64,000 nt of DNA from Vulcanimicrobiota bacterium. GTDB lineage: Bacteria > Vulcanimicrobiota > Vulcanimicrobiia > Vulcanimicrobiales > Vulcanimicrobiaceae. Positions 5,886 through 19,134 of this stretch are shown one piece after another. Every line of letters begins with the position of its first letter. Position 1 is the stretch's first letter. Both the position numbers and the translations under genes were made by a program. A model generated the notes under the pieces. That model did no database searches. It was not told the origin of the DNA and worked only from the letters and a program-made list of their open reading frames with translations. Location: NCBI GenBank assembly GCA_963795855.1, contig CAWCIZ010000001.1:384001-448000 (forward strand). The letters run 5' to 3'.

Positions 5886-7458
5886 GTGTTACTTGAGCGC
5901 CCGATGCGGGCCGAGCATGGAGAGGTCCGGACCCAGGCGCAGGGGCGCGTCCTGGCGCGCTACATCCCTTGGATCGCAGCCGGCTTAACGCTGGCCCTGC
6001 ACGTAGGAGGCAACCCGCACTACGGGTTCTTCCGCGACGAGATCTACTTCATCATCTGCGGCTTTCGTCCGGACGTCGGTTACGTCGATCAGCCCTCGCT
6101 CGTTCCGCTGCTCGCCGCGTTCTCGCAAGGATTCGGGGTCTCGCTCTTCGCGCTGCGCGTCATGCCCGCAATCTTTGCAGCGCTCACGACGTTCGTCGCG
6201 GCGCGGCTTGCAATCGAGTTCGGCGGCGGCCGCTTCGCCATCATCATCGCGGCGCTCGTGACGACGTTCGCACCGGAGATGCTGGCGTTCGGATCGCGCC
6301 TTTCGCCCGACACGATCGAAATGGCGGTTTGGCCTTTGATGGCGCTGGTCGCGTACCGCATCGTGCGCGGCGGAGACGAGCGATTGTGGCTGCTCTTCGG
6401 GCTGCTCACGGCGTTCGGCTGGTGGAGTAAGTACAGCGTCGCATTTTTCGCGGCGGCGCTCGTGATCGGACTGCTGCTCACCCCGCAGCGCCGCGTCTTG
6501 CGTACGCCATGGTTCGGCGTATGGACTTGCGTTGTGCGCGCTCCTGATCGCTCCGAACGTTTGGTGGCAATGGCACTACGATTTCCCGATGCTGCAGCTG
6601 CTGCACAACGACTACGACAAGTTCATGCTCAAATGGCCGCCGTTCCCGCTGCAGCAAATCATGGTGATGAGCCCGCTGCTCTCCATCGTTTGGCTGATCG
6701 GCCTCGGATGGCTGTTCGCCAATGTGCGCACGCGGTTTCTGGCATACGCATACGCGGCGTTGATCGCAATGATGTGGGCCGGCGATGCTAAGGCGTATTA
6801 CCCTGCACCGGTTTATGCGTATCTGATCGCGGCGGGCGCCGTGCCGATCGAGCGCTGGACCGGCATCCGGCACGGATGGCGCGCGGCAATCGTCGCCGTG
6901 GTTATCGCGTTCGCAATTCCGTCCACGCCGTTCGTGCTGCCGATCGTGCCTATGACCACATACATAAAATATCAAGTGGTGCTCGGCAATCTCTTCCATA
7001 TCAATTTTCACGTCGGCGACGCCGGCAATGCGACGCCGATTCAGTACTACGCCGACATGACCGGCTGGCCGCAGCTCGAACAGCGAGTCGCGGACGTTTA
7101 CCGCGGTTTACCGCCGTCCGAACGCGCCGGCGCCGCGATCTACGCGCACAACTTCGGTGAGGCTGCGGCGATCGATCTGTACGGCGCCGCCGAGAAACTT
7201 CCGCCCGCGCTGAGCGGCAACAACAACTACTGGCTTTGGGGCACGCATGGGTACACCGGCGCCGTCGTAATCGACGTCAACGGGCGCGAACTGCTGCCGT
7301 ACTACCGTTCCGTGCAAAGCGTCGGCACATTCTACAACCCGCTGGCGATGCCGTACGAAAACAATCTCCCGATCTGGATCCTGCGCGACCCGAAAGTCCC
7401 GCTTTCTGCAATCTGGCCCCATCTCAAGAACTATTCCTACGCTTTCGGCGGCCTGTGA
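5886..7458 (+). CDS. GT-C (ArnT/PMT, GT39-like) membrane glycosyltransferase, split by one frameshift near 6522
   Basis: YGFFRDEIY..GYVDQP and WSKY in the first ORF; continues as LLIAPNVWWQ..KAYY..NFGEAAA..LSGNNNYWLWG in the 6532 frame. Confidence 0.8.
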
Positions 7459-7470
7459 TGTGCGCTCGTA

Positions 7471-7697
7471 TGCCGTCGCGTGCGGGTGGGCAGGCGACAT
7501 GTTGAGGCGGGAACATGGCCCGATCGACCTCCTGTCGAGCGGGCCATTCAGGACATCCGGATTTTTTCGAAAACAAGTTTTGTAACGGACCTCCTGTCCG
7601 GCGAAAAAATCCGGAACGTCCCGCCTCAACACGCCGCCCGCCCACCCGCACGCTGCGGCACACTCGCTTGGTGGTGAAGCGCAGAAACGTTCCGAAC
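7471..7697 (-). ncRNA. Candidate structured sRNA, copy A (two AGGAG hairpin loops; CsrA-sponge-like)
   Basis: Nested stems 7478-7491/7640-7653 (14 bp), 7500-7512/7619-7631 (13 bp) and 7556-7569/7602-7615 (14 bp). Hairpins 7515-7547 and 7586-7600 have loops reading AGGAG on the minus strand. Ends are approximate. Confidence 0.6.
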
Positions 7698-7704
7698 CCT
7701 CTTG

Positions 7705-7731
7705 TAGTCGGCTTGTCACGCGTTGCACTTG
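7705..7731 (-). promoter_or_regulatory. Sigma28-like promoter pointing into sRNA copy A
   Basis: Minus strand reads CAAG-N15-GCCGACTA. Confidence 0.5.
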
Positions 7732-7848
7732 CTCGCGGGTTTTCTTCATTGTTTTTGCTCTCCGCTCTAACCGCGCTCATTCAAAAAAAGACGTCTCCGT
7801 AGTGATTGCGCGTTCGGCCATTCTTCATTTTGCAGGCTCCGTTATTTG

Positions 7849-7876
7849 TAAATTTTCTTGAACGGAACATCGATCG
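7849..7876 (+). promoter_or_regulatory. Weak sigma28-like promoter pointing into sRNA copy B
   Basis: TAAA-N16-ATCGATCG; only the CGAT core of the -10 matches. Confidence 0.3.
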
Positions 7877-7882
7877 GCATGT

Positions 7883-8170
7883 GGGCACCGCTTGGCGTGG
7901 GGCGCACGTCTCGAGTCGCAGCGGTTGAACGGCGCGGCCTCGCTTTCGTAGCGAGCGCGACGTCCGACGTGGGAGGGATGACCGGGCGCTGCGGGACGTT
8001 CCGGATTTTCGGCCCAGCCAGGACGGCTGTTTCAAATCTTTGATTTGCCGAAAATCCGGATGTCCTGAATGACGCGCTCGACAGGACGTCGATCGCGGCA
8101 TGCTCCCGCAGCGCTCGGTCATCCGTCTCACGCCGAGACGAAACCGCTGCGTTAGCCCCCGCGCCCCATC
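7883..8170 (+). ncRNA. Candidate structured sRNA, copy B (two AGGAC hairpin loops; CsrA-sponge-like)
   Basis: Stems 7917-7926/8142-8151, 7976-7996/8104-8124 (one G-U pair) and 8000-8013/8047-8060 (14 bp). Hairpins cagcc-AGGAC-ggctg (8015-8029) and tcgac-AGGAC-gtcga (8078-8092). Inverted homologue of copy A. Ends are approximate. Confidence 0.6.
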
Positions 8171-8201
8171 GACGCAGCACCCCAGCCGCGGGCGAGAAGG
8201 C

Positions 8202-8228
8202 TAAAGTCAAGCAACCACATGCCGATAG
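8202..8228 (+). promoter_or_regulatory. Sigma28-type promoter for the flgF-flgG operon
   Basis: TAAA-N15-GCCGATAG, near-perfect consensus. Confidence 0.85.
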
Positions 8229-8355
8229 ATTGAAGTGAACGCGGCTGGACTGCCTCTCGCACGGGCGGGAGCCGCGGCGGAACCTGATTGATTGACGGTT
8301 TCGCGGTGCGCGGCGGATGCGCCGAGTACGACCCGATCGTGCGGAGGTTTTACTT

Positions 8356-16996: not shown

Positions 16997-17485
16997 ATGG
17001 AAAGCACGATGGAGTCCACGCAGACGATGACGGTCGTCACGAACCGCTTCGGAAAAGTGACGTTCACCGAATCGGACGTGTTCGTGTTTCCGTGGGGTCT
17101 GCCGGGCTTTTCGGACCTGCGCCGTTTTCTCGCGCTCTCGCTTGCCGAACAGCCCAATTTCGTGTGGCTCCAGTCGCTCGAGGATCCCAACATCGCTCTT
17201 CCCGCGGCGGATCCGTGGCAGCTCTTTCCGGACTATGAGCCGCGAATGCCGTCCTACGCGACCGAAGCGCTCGAACTGCACAGCGCCGAGGACTTCACGA
17301 TCCTTTGCATCGTGGTGGTGACCAAAGACGCCGAAGAGATGACGATGAACCTGATGGCGCCGGTCGTGCTGAATCTGAAGACGCGCCGCGCCCGTCAGGT
17401 GATGCTGGAAAATTCCGCCTATTCGGTCCGGACCGCTCTTCCCCGAAAGCCCGTGGAGGCACAAGGCACCGCCCAGCCGGCGTAG
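16997..17485 (+). CDS. fliW: Flagellar assembly factor FliW (CsrA antagonist)
   Basis: TNRFG..FPWGLPGF, WLQS, TMNLMAPVVLN..ARQV; next to csrA and flagellin. Confidence 0.95.
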   Translation: MESTMESTQTMTVVTNRFGKVTFTESDVFVFPWGLPGFSDLRRFLALSLAEQPNFVWLQSLEDPNIALPAADPWQLFPDYEPRMPSYATEALELHSAEDFTILCIVVVTKDAEEMTMNLMAPVVLNLKTRRARQVMLENSAYSVRTALPRKPVEAQGTAQPA

Positions 17486-17515: not shown

Positions 17516-17788
17516 ATGCTAGTCCTGAGCCGGAAAGTCAACCAGTCCATCATGGTGGGCGACAACGTCCGCGTGGTGGTCGTCGCTGTCGACCGCGACC
17601 AGGTCAAACTGGGCATCGAGGCGCCGCGTGAAATCGCGGTCCACCGGTCGGAAATCTACGAAGAGATTCAGCGCACCAACCGTTCCGCCGCAGCCGGTGA
17701 AGCGCCGTCCGCCGCGTCGGGTCCGGTCGTGACGCGCGCCACGCTGCAGCCCCGAAAAAAATCTTCCAAACCGGCAAAGAACCGCTAA
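17516..17788 (+). CDS. csrA: Carbon storage regulator CsrA with C-terminal extension
   Basis: MLVLSRKVNQSIMVGD..VKLGIEAPREIAVHRSEIY; Asn55 present. Confidence 0.97.
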   Translation: MLVLSRKVNQSIMVGDNVRVVVVAVDRDQVKLGIEAPREIAVHRSEIYEEIQRTNRSAAAGEAPSAASGPVVTRATLQPRKKSSKPAKNR

Positions 17789-17812
17789 ACTCGCACACCC
17801 TGCGACCGATAT
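17786..17812 (+). promoter_or_regulatory. Sigma28-type promoter for flagellin
   Basis: TAAA-N15-ACCGATAT. Confidence 0.85.
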
Positions 17813-17822
17813 ACAGATGGAA

Positions 17823-17880
17823 GGGGACAGGACGTCTCCCTCGACTAGTCATTAGCACACGCGTGTTAATCATGGAGGAA
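17823..17880 (+). promoter_or_regulatory. CsrA-binding sites in the flagellin 5' leader
   Basis: Hairpin ggggac-AGGAC-gtctcc (17823-17839) plus ATGGAGG overlapping the Shine-Dalgarno; same two-site layout as B. subtilis hag. Confidence 0.7.
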
Positions 17881-17882
17881 AC

Positions 17883-19134
17883 ATGCAAGGTCTCAGTATC
17901 GCCAACAACCTGTTGGCCAACAGCGTTCAGTACAACCTGAACAACAACCAAGAAGCCCTTCGCAACACCGTTACGCAGTCTGTCCAGCGGTCTGCGCATC
18001 AACAGCGCTGCGGACGATCCGTCCGGTCTTGCGATCGCGACGAACCTGCAGACGCAAGTCGACGCGTTCCAGCAGGCCTCGCAGAACGTTCAGGACGCCA
18101 ACAACGCGGCGCAGGTTGCCGACGGCGCCCTCGCAACGGAAACCGACATTCTGCAGCGTATCCGCAGCCTCGCGGTGGAAGCGTCCAGCTCCATCAACAG
18201 CGCTTCGGACAATGCCAACCTGCAATCGGAAATCTCGCAGCTGCTGCTCGAGGTCAACCGCATTTCGCAGAACACGAACTTCAACGGCCAGGCGCTGCTC
18301 GACGGCAGCCATTCCGGCTTCCAGCCCTACACGAACGCGTCGTACACGGTCAGCTCGAACTCCGTTCTCGCTTCGGCGGGCGCAGCCGCGCTCTCGAAGA
18401 GCGGCGTTGCGGCCGGCGACCTCGTCGCCAGCGTGAGCACGACGGCGAACTTCAACACGACGGCCGCAGGCGGCGGCGTCGACGGCACGATCGAACTGCA
18501 GGTCATCAACACCAGCAGCACGACCGTGGCCGTTCAGGTTTCGTTCTTCTCGAGCAGCAACTCGAGCACGAGCGCGACCGCCAAAGTCGTGGCTGCCAAT
18601 GCGGGCGCGAACACGAAGGTCACCGTTGACGGCTTGACCATCACGGTCGGAAACGTGTCGCTGCAAGATGCCGGCACGACGGCCTACGTCAAAGTCAGCC
18701 AAGCCGTTGCTGCCAGCAGCTCGGCAGCAGGCCCGCTGACGATTCAGTCGGGCGCGAACGAAGGCGACACGGTCGCCGTCGGCATCCAGGCCACGAACGC
18801 GCAGACCCTGCGCATCTCGAACATCAACGTCGCCAACACGGCGTCGGGTGTTCTCGCGGCGGAAGACGCGGTCGGACAAGTCACCAACGCGCTGGACACG
18901 CTGCTCTCGCAGCGCGCACAGCTCGGCGCGGTCATCGTTCGCCTCAACGAAGATGCGAACAACGACAACGTCGCATCGGTGAATCTGCAGGCGTCGGAAT
19001 CCGCGATTCGCGACCTCAACGTCGGCCAGGCGACGACGCAATTCACGAAACTGCAAGTTCTCGTGCAAGTCGGCACCTCGGTCTTGGCGCAGTCGAACGC
19101 GAACGCGCAGTCGGTCCTCGGCCTCTTCCGTTAA
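17883..19134 (+). CDS. fliC: Flagellin (one extra base at about 17979)
   Basis: Removing T17979 gives QLSSGLRINSAADDPSGLAIA. Also NTNFNGQALLDG, QRAQLGA, SAIRDLNV and VLAQSN..VLGLFR. Confidence 0.95.

What the first reader, a model, noticed from the sequence alone, without database searches (positions are those of the whole stretch)
7471..8170. Divergent pair of structured RNAs displaying flagellin-leader-like GGA loops: candidate CsrA-sponge sRNA system in a FliW-CsrA organism
Seen in sequence: two homologous elements in inverted orientation (cores 7500-7631 minus and 7976-8124 plus) share one topology. Each has a long closing stem, a 14-bp TCCGGATTTT.. stem enclosing a GGA-loop hairpin plus a small AU hairpin, an invariant linker UGUCCUGA, and a second GGA-loop hairpin. 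Stem sequences differ but pairing is kept: cggac/gtccg versus cagcc/ggctg, and tgttgaggcggga/tcccgcctcaaca versus gcgctgcggga/tcccgcagcgc. Loops are AGGAG twice in copy A and AGGAC twice in copy B. G-U pairs and two outward-facing sigma28-like promoters (7705-7731 minus, 7849-7876 plus) favour the GGA-loop orientation. GACAGGACGTC at 8080-8090 is identical to 17826-17836 in the flagellin leader hairpin. Established: CsrA binds GGA hairpin loops; Gammaproteobacteria titrate it with CsrB/Rsm sRNAs, while fliW-csrA-flagellin lineages use the FliW protein (Asn55 is present here). Inference: this locus may use both RNA decoys and FliW, with decoys of a rigid two-loop architecture suited to the two RNA-binding faces of a CsrA dimer.
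Basis: partly seen in the sequence, partly recalled or inferred. Interest (0 to 1): 0.9.

Follow-up and report, generated by a model that had tools for sequence, protein, structure and literature searches.

The report
Doublet of a dispersed hairpin repeat
The two mirrored hairpin elements are real, but they are one back-to-back pair among eleven copies of a structured repeat scattered through this soil bacterium and its family; it resembles a known, unexplained RNA motif (TwoAYGGAY) suspected of binding the regulator CsrA, so it is a new lineage of a known kind and not a special flagellar control system.

Summary
Window 7468-7663(-) and 7965-8135(+) are homologous, extremely stable three-way-junction hairpins with two GGA loops each.

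They are not a locus-specific pair. A covariance model finds 11 full copies plus one decayed copy in this genome. It finds 271 copies in 54 of 101 genomes of the same family, which public titles label Eremiobacterota/Baltobacteraceae. It finds none in 79 genomes of 20 other families of the phylum.

- **Structure:** covariation is massive, with 42 of 48 pairs showing double changes.
- **Placement:** copies sit in ordinary intergenic spots such as nuoD|nuoE, recA 3' and fliP|fliQ, in either orientation, without conserved promoter or terminator signals.
- **Turnover:** they come and go between congeners. The sister genome G083 lacks this whole doublet.
- **Pairs:** all 14 close pairs seen are divergent.

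This is the behaviour published for TwoAYGGAY (Rfam RF01731), though that model does not match.

CsrA binding stays plausible, because the loops resemble CsrA sites. However, element presence is independent of csrA (odds ratio about 0.9).

Verdict: new variant of a known kind. The scan reached the same reading before on other DNA.

The parts
7468..7663 (-). Copy A, whole hairpin element (closing-stem arms 7468-7512 and 7619-7663)
   Evidence: Inverted repeat I2, 45 nt, 87% complementary. MFE -149.5 kcal/mol, z -13.2.
7499..7631 (-). Copy A core matched by covariance model R1
   Evidence: 126.9 bits, E 7e-29, model positions 1-127.
7556..7615 (-). Copy A inner A/U-rich stem domain: 14-bp stem 7556-7569/7602-7615 enclosing hairpin 1 and a mini hairpin
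   Evidence: I7, 14 nt, 100% complementary. Fold.
7586..7600 (-). Copy A hairpin 1, loop AGGAG (plus-strand CTCCT at 7591-7595)
   Evidence: Sequence. Fold.
7515..7547 (-). Copy A hairpin 2, loop AGGAG (plus-strand CTCCT at 7529-7533)
   Evidence: I8 arms 7515-7528/7534-7547. Fold.
7664..7964 (.). Spacer between the two divergent copies; relatively AT-rich; no supported promoter
   Evidence: Sequence. No sigma70-type site. No TAAA-N14-17-CGAT site.
7965..8135 (+). Copy B, whole hairpin element (closing-stem arms 7965-7996 and 8104-8135)
   Evidence: I4, 32 nt, 88% complementary. MFE -116.2 kcal/mol, z -9.1.
7984..8117 (+). Copy B core matched by covariance model R1
   Evidence: 123.9 bits, E 3.9e-28.
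8000..8060 (+). Copy B inner A/U-rich stem domain: 14-bp stem 8000-8013/8047-8060
   Evidence: I6, 14 nt, 100% complementary.
8016..8030 (+). Copy B hairpin 1, loop AGGAC (8021-8025)
   Evidence: Sequence. Fold.
8069..8101 (+). Copy B hairpin 2, loop AGGAC (8083-8087); contains GACAGGACGTC at 8080-8090
   Evidence: Fold. Pattern search.
8202..8229 (+). Context, not part of the element: sigma28-like promoter (TAAA-N15-GCCGATAG) for flgF, lying downstream of copy B
   Evidence: A like motif sits right after the upstream gene's stop in G083, which has no doublet. The sigma28 consensus is recalled, not from a call.
17826..17836 (+). Context: GACAGGACGTC hairpin in the flagellin leader; csrA lies at 17516-17716 and fliW at 16997-17485

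Best explanation
The two elements are one divergent doublet of a multi-copy, structure-constrained intergenic element. It is confined, among the genomes searched, to one family of Eremiobacterota (labelled Baltobacteraceae in public titles).

Each copy is 145-215 nt and has four parts:
- a 25-45-bp closing stem of free sequence that only has to pair;
- a long A/U-rich inner stem carrying a CA(N)GGAUG-loop hairpin plus a conserved UUCAAAAC mini hairpin;
- a conserved RAGC junction;
- a second hairpin with a CA(N)GGAKG or CACGAUG loop.

Shown here:
- The fold is selected on one strand, the GGA strand.
- The family is dispersed and variable in copy number.
- Copies are gained and lost between congeners.
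- The element tends to duplicate locally in inverted, head-to-head form.

This is the architecture and genomic behaviour described for the TwoAYGGAY motif, so I read it as an Eremiobacterota lineage or variant of that kind of element.

Inferred:
- It spreads like a non-autonomous mobile or duplicative element through a single-stranded (RNA or ssDNA) intermediate in which the GGA strand folds.
- The two similar loops are recognition sites for a dimeric protein.
- CsrA is the best candidate where the element is transcribed in the GGA sense. I put binding at about 35-40%. Maintenance of the family does not depend on CsrA or on the flagellar locus.
For: Copy number and spread:
- 11 full copies plus 1 decayed copy in G000.
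- 271 matches in 54 of 101 family genomes, 1-17 per positive genome.
- In the phylum scan, 47 of 71 genomes of family f1 and 0 of 79 genomes of 20 other families.
- 109 of 119 pattern-matched public loci carry Eremiobacterota-lineage titles.

Structure:
- On 45 elements, 86.7% of cells are paired against 57.7% in shuffles. 42 of 48 pairs have double changes, and 0 of 500 shuffles reach this.
- G-U pairs outnumber A-C mismatches 40 to 11 in the well-defined helices.
- The GGA strand is the more stable one in 11 of 11 G000 copies and in 5 of 5 homologues.

Behaviour:
- All 11 copies are intergenic: greA|lysS, recA 3', nuoD|nuoE, nuoF 3', fliP|fliQ, E1|E2 and others.
- With co-directional neighbours, 5 are sense and 8 antisense. 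7 lie between convergent genes and 0 between divergent genes. 38 of 58 were unresolved.
- All 14 close pairs (59-1111 nt apart, median 138) are divergent.
- 6 further pairs in named records are also divergent, though these may overlap the 14.
- Doublet partners are each other's nearest relative in 4 of 5 doublets.

Turnover:
- G083 and G007 elements lie at 5 sites that are cleanly empty in G000 (gaps of 3-74 nt against 208-508 nt).
- One site has an intact orthologue and one a decayed one.
- G083 has 61 nt where the window has the doublet.
- Many copies lie at contig ends in fragmented assemblies.

Published parallel (passages and Discussion of bioRxiv 10.64898/2026.09.22.753630, read):
- TwoAYGGAY is two hairpins on a common basal stem.
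- Median copy number is 11-23 in Pseudomonas groups outside the P. aeruginosa group.
- 68.4% of doublets are divergent, with a median gap of 249 bp.
- The authors call the expansion 'mobile-element-like'.
Against: - Rfam's TwoAYGGAY model gives no hit in this genome at E <= 10, nor on the elements themselves.
- The strict AYGGAY loop occurs in only 40 of 163 first hairpins and 32 of 163 second hairpins, and in neither window copy.
- The likeness could therefore be convergent.
- No transposase partner was found. Y1/RAYT occurs in 6 of 101 genomes, only 2 of them with the element.
- There are no conserved terminal repeats; the closing stems differ between copies.
- I saw no target-site duplication.
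- Copies are old and divergent, with mean column identity 53%.
- 2 of 10 G000 loci lie in flagellar clusters, a mild excess that would fit a CsrA link.
- No transcript data exist for either strand.
Confidence: 0.72

Rival explanations
1. Copies A and B are two dedicated small RNAs, transcribed outward from sigma28-type promoters in the spacer. They titrate CsrA alongside FliW to tune flagellin synthesis.
For: - Each copy has two GGA-loop hairpins.
- An 11-nt hairpin is identical to one in the flagellin leader, against 0.04 expected by chance.
- fliW and csrA lie 9 kb away.
- The spacer is AT-richer than its surroundings.
- A third G000 copy sits in the fliP-fliR operon.
Against: - The pair is 2 of 11 dispersed copies.
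- G083 lacks the doublet altogether.
- The proposed promoters fail the scans. A good sigma28 motif lies downstream of copy B.
- Other doublets have only 59-148 nt between their cores, which leaves little room for two promoters.
- There is no association with csrA: 44/10/39/8, odds ratio about 0.9.
Confidence: 0.07
2. A family-wide CsrA decoy. All copies, when transcribed in the GGA sense, bind one CsrA dimer through their two loops. They act either as titrating decoys or as cis-acting CsrA docking sites in the messages that carry them. Their spread is secondary.
For: - Commonest loop-plus-closing-pairs string in both hairpins's pattern-selected set (A5): ACAGGAUGU, 35 of 106 first and 16 of 106 second hairpins. 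It is close to the CsrA/RsmE consensus (that consensus is recalled, not from a call).
- GGA is present in 160 of 163 first hairpins and 120 of 163 second hairpins.
- The same proposal is in print for TwoAYGGAY.
Against: - 10 of 54 element-bearing genomes show no csrA, at completeness 62-96%.
- 5 of these 10 were tested further. None of the 5 shows fliW, yet 4 of the 5 have flagellin and the 5 carry 1-15 copies each.
- In 30 copies from five csrA-negative genomes (four of the tested five plus G058), the first-hairpin GGA is kept in 29 of 30.
- 39 genomes have csrA but no element.
- 38 of 163 second loops read CACGA.
- 8 of 13 copies between co-directional genes are antisense, so read-through from the neighbouring genes would display UCC loops.
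Confidence: 0.25
3. A REP-like palindrome acting at the level of the flanking messages. The long hairpin would stabilise or terminate upstream transcripts in either orientation, and the conserved core would be only a by-product of common descent.
For: - Copies lie 13-137 nt from gene 3' ends.
- 7 lie between convergent genes and none between divergent genes.
- Both orientations occur.
- The stems are very stable.
Against: - Descent alone does not explain the strong strand asymmetry: G-U 40 against A-C 11.
- Loops and junction nucleotides are conserved across 42 of the 78 genera sampled, while the stems are free to vary.
- No U-tract follows the stem: 1 of 43.
Confidence: 0.12

Closest known systems
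TwoAYGGAY RNA motif (Rfam RF01731). Sources: Weinberg et al. 2010, PMC2864571, one table row seen; extended analysis in bioRxiv 10.64898/2026.09.22.753630, passages and Discussion read.
   Same: - Two hairpins with GGA-centred loops rise from a common, elongated basal stem.
- Many copies per genome, with large copy-number differences between relatives.
- Doublets are enriched and divergently oriented: 14 of 14 here, 68.4% in Pseudomonas.
- Function unknown. Csr/Rsm binding has been proposed, and the expansion is mobile-element-like.
   Different: - Not detected by RF01731 at E <= 10.
- The commonest loop type is the five-nucleotide A-GGA-U loop (89 of 163 first, 57 of 163 second hairpins), not AYGGAY (40 and 32).
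- The first hairpin is nested in an extra roughly 14-20-bp A/U-rich stem with a conserved UUCAAAAC mini hairpin.
- No upstream 5-mer repeat arrays: 1.08 per 200 nt against 1.42-1.85 in controls.
- A new phylum, one with the FliW-CsrA pair.
CsrB/RsmZ-type CsrA-sequestering small RNAs
   Same: GGA motifs are displayed in hairpin loops. Paralogous copies occur in one genome.
   Different: - Only two sites per molecule.
- A rigid, closed three-way junction with a very long closing stem.
- No conserved promoter or terminator.
- Placed inside operons in either orientation.
- No co-occurrence with csrA.
REP/REPIN and MITE-type intergenic repeats
   Same: - Dispersed, intergenic and hairpin-forming.
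- Occur as singlets and inverted doublets.
- Present or absent between relatives.
- Break short-read assemblies.
   Different: - The terminal stems are not conserved in sequence, and conservation lies in the apical core.
- Low copy number (1-17).
- No RAYT/Y1 transposase association: 6 of 101 genomes.
- No target-site duplication seen.

Membership tests
TwoAYGGAY (RF01731) | Two sequential hairpins on a common basal stem | tested here: met
   Folds. Covariation in all helices. Here the first hairpin is nested in an additional stem.
TwoAYGGAY (RF01731) | AYGGAY in both terminal loops | tested here: not met
   Window copies have AGGAG and AGGAC loops. Family-wide, strict AYGGAY occurs in 40 of 163 first and 32 of 163 second hairpins, and GGA in 160 and 120 of 163.
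TwoAYGGAY (RF01731) | Score at or above the Rfam gathering threshold (43 bits) | tested here: not met
   No RF01731 match at gathering over the window. None at E <= 10 on 7400-8350. None at E <= 1 on 13 loci with other copies. None at E <= 10 on the whole genome.
TwoAYGGAY (RF01731) | Multi-copy, with enriched divergent doublets (as described in bioRxiv 10.64898/2026.09.22.753630) | tested here: met
   11 copies in G000. 1-17 copies in each of 54 genomes. All 14 close pairs are divergent.
TwoAYGGAY, Pseudomonadota extended form | Upstream GMTBT(T) 5-6-mer repeat arrays | tested here: not met
   Six 5-mers: 1.08 per 200 nt upstream sense, against 1.42-1.85 in the three controls, over 62 elements.
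CsrA/Rsm-sequestering sRNA | GGA motifs in hairpin loops matching the CsrA site | tested here: met
   Identity to the flagellin-leader hairpin. The CsrA consensus itself is recalled.
CsrA/Rsm-sequestering sRNA | Independent transcription unit (promoter and terminator) | tested here: not met
   TANNNT in 11 of 43 upstream flanks against 10 of 43 downstream. T-run after the stem in 1 of 43. No site in the window locus. These are consensus scans only.
CsrA/Rsm-sequestering sRNA | Occurs with its protein partner | tested here: not met
   Element and csrA across 101 genomes: 44 +/+, 10 +/-, 39 -/+, 8 -/-. Assembly incompleteness limits the negatives.
CsrA/Rsm-sequestering sRNA | Binds CsrA and relieves repression | not testable with these tools
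   Needs gel-shift and reporter assays.
MITE/REP | Dispersed intergenic copies with presence/absence differences between relatives | tested here: met
MITE/REP | Conserved terminal inverted repeats and target-site duplications | tested here: not met
   Closing stems differ in sequence between copies. No duplication visible at four filled/empty junctions. About 20% flank divergence limits this test.
MITE/REP | Cognate transposase (RAYT/IS200 Y1) | tested here: not met
   PF01797 in 6 of 101 genomes, 2 of them with the element. None in G000. Other transposase families were not tested.

The most novel reading that the evidence does not exclude
These are self-propagating CsrA decoys. A duplicative element family plants a ready-made two-site CsrA docking module between genes and into operons of a FliW-CsrA phylum for which I know of no described RNA antagonist (that rests on recall). 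Mobility itself would then rewire post-transcriptional control. The head-to-head doublet would be the propagation intermediate of a still unknown single-strand-hairpin copying mechanism.
Probability: 0.15. Interest if true: 0.8.

Novelty: new variant of a known kind. Interest (0 to 1): 0.42.

Why it matters
- TwoAYGGAY is one of the oldest unexplained bacterial RNA motifs. Its recently described copy-number swings and divergent doublets are unexplained too.
- This finding puts the same behaviour in a distant, uncultured soil phylum, in a version that the Rfam model misses. The phenomenon is therefore broader than catalogued.
- It gives a clean comparative set: a low-copy family with fully covarying stems, syntenic filled and empty sites, and genomes both with and without csrA.
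- That set makes two open questions testable: whether CsrA is the partner, and how the element copies itself.
- For annotation, these elements should not be read as locus-specific regulators of whatever gene they sit beside.

Tried and rejected
- **BLAST for further copies** found only the partner and a few half-matches, so it under-called the family. The covariance model was needed.
- **Rfam** at gathering and at permissive E-values gave only long-hairpin noise such as plant miRNA precursors.
- **Sequencing runs:** no RNA holder listed, so read laying was not attempted.
- **Scan notebook** look-ups by place and by sequence returned nothing.
- **First stem-extension script** failed through a register offset. 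It was replaced by a fold-based one.
- **GC3-based gene calls** on three lower-GC loci were too sparse and were replaced by tblastn. That showed no flgK, fliW or csrA matches within 6 kb upstream of flagellin in G045, G065 and G088. The gene order there differs, so this adds little beyond the whole-genome HMM searches.
- **Mutual-information scan** for tertiary contacts of the loops found only the known helices and a 2-bp extension of the inner stem.
- **Gene between a wider pair** (G066): it looks, by eye, like a phosphoesterase, not a transposase. The genes between the 2.2-kb G000 pair are nuoE and nuoF.
- **Literature:**
  - 'AYGGAY' with 'CsrA' gave one survey preprint, seen as a listing only.
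  - Two broad multi-term searches were uninformative.
  - 'Eremiobacter*' with 'CsrA' gave 0 papers.
  - Reference 55 of the preprint, the source of the Csr/Rsm proposal, could not be identified because no reference list is held.
  - The preprint's supplements are closed, so its Bacillota variants could not be compared.
- **Considered and dropped without a dedicated test.** Only the general Rfam scans speak to these, and they returned none of them:
  - 6S RNA, Y RNA/YrlA, retron ncRNA, integron attC, ANTAR and T-box-like readings;
  - the UUCAAAAC resemblance to a T-loop, which is a recalled lead only.
Full report
**1. What is at the coordinates**

- Window 7468-7663 (minus strand) and 7965-8135 (plus strand) are inverted homologues. 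BLAST gives E 1.4e-24 at 81% identity. The pairwise alignment shows 82% mean column identity and an identical 17-nt stretch containing UGUCCUGA.
- Each element folds into the same parts:
  - a long closing stem;
  - a perfect 14-bp A/U-rich stem that encloses a GGA-loop hairpin and a mini hairpin;
  - the shared linker;
  - a second GGA-loop hairpin.
- Energies are -149.5 and -116.2 kcal/mol, with z-scores of -13.2 and -9.1. None of 200 shuffles folds as well.
- The GGA strand folds better than its complement.
- Rfam has no match at gathering. At permissive thresholds it returns only long-hairpin noise.

**2. It is not a pair but a family**

BLAST saw only these two copies. Partial hits in related genomes showed the same architecture with entirely different stems.

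A covariance model (R1) was built from the two window copies and five such homologues. It finds:
- 11 full copies (E 2e-27 to 3.6e-13) and one decayed copy in this 3.06-Mb genome;
- 271 matches in 54 of 101 genomes of the same family, 1-17 per positive genome, in 42 of 78 genera;
- in a phylum-wide sample, 47 of 71 genomes of that family and 0 of 79 genomes of 20 other families.

Of these, 109 carry Eremiobacterota-lineage titles: Eremiobacteraeota, Vulcanimicrobiota, Baltobacteraceae, Cybelea, Aquilonibacter or Rubrimentiphilum. The other 10 carry odd or generic labels.

The tallies include genomes flagged as unpublished (G019, G021, G028, G041, G051, G096, G100). Alignment A4 has one row each from G100 and G028.

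**3. The structure is under selection, on one strand**

- On 45 elements, 86.7% of cells form pairs, against 57.7% in shuffles.
- 42 of 48 pairs show changes on both sides. No shuffle (0 of 500) and no slid register comes near.
- The closing stem extends 5-44 bp beyond the model, giving total lengths of 145-215 nt.
- Closing-stem sequence is free. Two G000 paralogues differ by a clean compensatory change, CCAUCC/GGAUGG against CCGUCC/GGACGG.
- In the well-defined helices, G-U pairs outnumber A-C mismatches 40 to 11.
- The GGA strand is the more stable one in 11 of 11 G000 copies and 5 of 5 homologues.
- Conserved single-stranded features are the loops, a UUCAAAAC mini hairpin and RAGC junction nucleotides.
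- A mutual-information scan found no tertiary partner for the loops.

**4. Genomic behaviour**

*Placement.*
- All G000 copies are intergenic, and most lie 13-137 nt from a neighbouring gene's 3' end.
- The sites are greA|lysS, after recA, after a rarA-like ATPase gene, acyl-CoA dehydrogenase|DUF695, nuoD|nuoE, after nuoF, P450|LAM_C, fliP|fliQ-fliR, and between 2-oxoacid dehydrogenase genes.

*Orientation.*
- A crude neighbour call resolved 20 of 58 elements.
- With co-directional neighbours, 5 are sense and 8 antisense.
- 7 lie between convergent genes and 0 between divergent genes.

*Transcription signals.*
- The flanks show none. TANNNT occurs in 11 of 43 upstream and 10 of 43 downstream flanks, and a T-run follows the stem in 1 of 43.
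- At the window locus the sigma70 scan is empty.
- The only good sigma28-type motifs are 8202-8226, downstream of copy B and before flgF, and 17786-17810, before flagellin.

*Doublets.*
- All 14 close pairs identified by genome coordinates are divergent. They come from G000, G072 (2), G015, G075, G054 (5), G066, G083 (2) and G065.
- The gaps between their cores are 59-1111 nt, median 138.
- Six more pairs in named records are also divergent, but they may overlap the 14.
- Only 150 of the 271 matches were listed, so this is not a full census.
- In 4 of 5 doublets the partner is the nearest relative among 44 other elements, which points to local inverted duplication.

**5. Turnover**

Comparing the two congeners (flanks about 76-85% identical) with G000 gives the following.
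- Five sites are occupied in G083 or G007 and cleanly empty in G000, including two whole doublets. Gaps are 3-74 nt against 208-508 nt.
- One site has an intact orthologue and one a decayed one.
- Two sites are ambiguous and one is unmapped.

Conversely, at the window's own site G083 has 61 nt between the glycosyltransferase stop and the flgF promoter. The window has about 760 nt there. G007 has at least one copy at that site, at a contig end. In fragmented assemblies many copies lie at contig ends.

The window doublet belongs to a sub-type with the extra GUCCUGA linker. The other nine G000 copies lack this linker, but it is seen in two other genera.

**6. The CsrA question**

For:
- The loops look like CsrA sites. 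In the pattern-selected set, ACAGGAUGU (loop plus closing pairs) is the commonest string in both hairpins.
- One window hairpin matches the flagellin-leader hairpin over 11 nt.
- Csr/Rsm binding is the published suggestion for TwoAYGGAY.

Against:
- csrA is found in 83 of 101 genomes, and its presence is independent of the element: 44, 10, 39 and 8, odds ratio about 0.9.
- Five csrA-negative, element-bearing genomes were tested further (G088, G045, G065, G052 and G025). They are 86-96% complete and carry 1-15 copies each.
  - None of the five shows fliW.
  - Four of the five have flagellin.
- In 30 copies from five csrA-negative genomes (four of those above plus G058), GGA is kept in the first hairpin in 29 of 30 and in the second in 13 of 30.
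- Overall the second loop reads CACGA in 38 of 163 elements.
- Assembly incompleteness weakens the negatives but cannot explain the 39 genomes that have csrA and no element.

**7. Comparison with what is known**

[quoted passage not shown] Per the preprint passages read, it has these properties:
- medians of 11-23 copies in Pseudomonas groups outside the P. aeruginosa group;
- enriched doublets, 68.4% of them divergent, at a median of 249 bp;
- elongated basal stems in Bacillota.

The preprint's Discussion calls the expansion mobile-element-like and the link to Csr/Rsm unresolved.

The present family shares the architecture and the behaviour but fails the formal tests:
- no RF01731 hit;
- mostly five-nucleotide A-GGA-U loops;
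- a nested extra stem;
- no upstream 5-mer arrays.

It is not RAYT-associated. I therefore file it as a new variant of that kind, and homology to RF01731 remains unproven. Two earlier follow-ups of this scan on other genomes reached the same type of reading.

**8. Most likely mechanism**

Shown:
- a single-strand fold selected on the GGA strand;
- dispersal through the genome and the family;
- gain and loss between congeners;
- inverted local duplication.

Inferred:
- propagation as a non-autonomous duplicative element through a folded single-stranded intermediate;
- two like loops serving as a docking site for a dimeric protein.

CsrA is the best candidate for that protein. I put binding at about 35-40%, but the family does not depend on it. 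A dedicated flagellar sponge pair is unlikely, at about 7%.

No expression data could be obtained, so the strand actually made in cells is unknown.

Noticed in passing
window 17883-19134: The flagellin gene appears frameshifted. The ATG at 17883 opens a typical flagellin N-terminus (MQGLSIANNLL...). The Flagellin_N and Flagellin_C domains, however, are read in the +1 frame from about 17941 to 19134, and the profile match starts at position 26. This is either an assembly error or a pseudogene.
   Followed up: partly
window 8202-8229 and 17786-17813; L265 1481-1510: Well-formed sigma28-type motifs (TAAA-N15-GCCGATAG and TAAA-N15-ACCGATAT) lie before flgF and before flagellin. The flgF motif is kept in G083, right after the upstream gene's stop.
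   Followed up: partly
window 7108-7749 (-): A 213-aa ORF starts at an ATG (7749) preceded by GGAGAG. It lies in the doublet spacer, reads through copy A and continues into the convergent glycosyltransferase gene. It has no Pfam hit and is probably spurious.
   Followed up: partly
window 7743-7751 and 7821-7829: The direct repeat TTCTTCATT, with a similar following GC..CTCCG stretch, occurs twice in the spacer between the two copies.
   Followed up: no
G000:C2:338560-338690 (locus L068): One copy lies inside the fliP-fliQ-fliR export operon, antisense to it. Together with the window doublet, 2 of 10 G000 loci fall in flagellar clusters, a mild excess by a rough estimate of my own.
   Followed up: partly
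L114, L164, L184, L213, L220 and L145: Records titled 'Candidatus Babeliales bacterium SMAG_U12343' (5 loci) and 'Candidatus Acidoferrum sp.' (1 locus, itself a divergent doublet) carry the element. This suggests mislabelled or mis-binned Eremiobacterota contigs.
   Followed up: no
G088, G052, G058, G065 contig ends: Many matches sit within the first or last 30-260 nt of short contigs, and some are truncated there. The repeat seems to break short-read assemblies, so copy numbers in fragmented genomes are underestimates.
   Followed up: no
window 5886-7458: The PMT_2-type glycosyltransferase upstream of the doublet is split over two overlapping ORFs (5886-6791 and 6532-7458). This may be another frameshift.
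   Followed up: no
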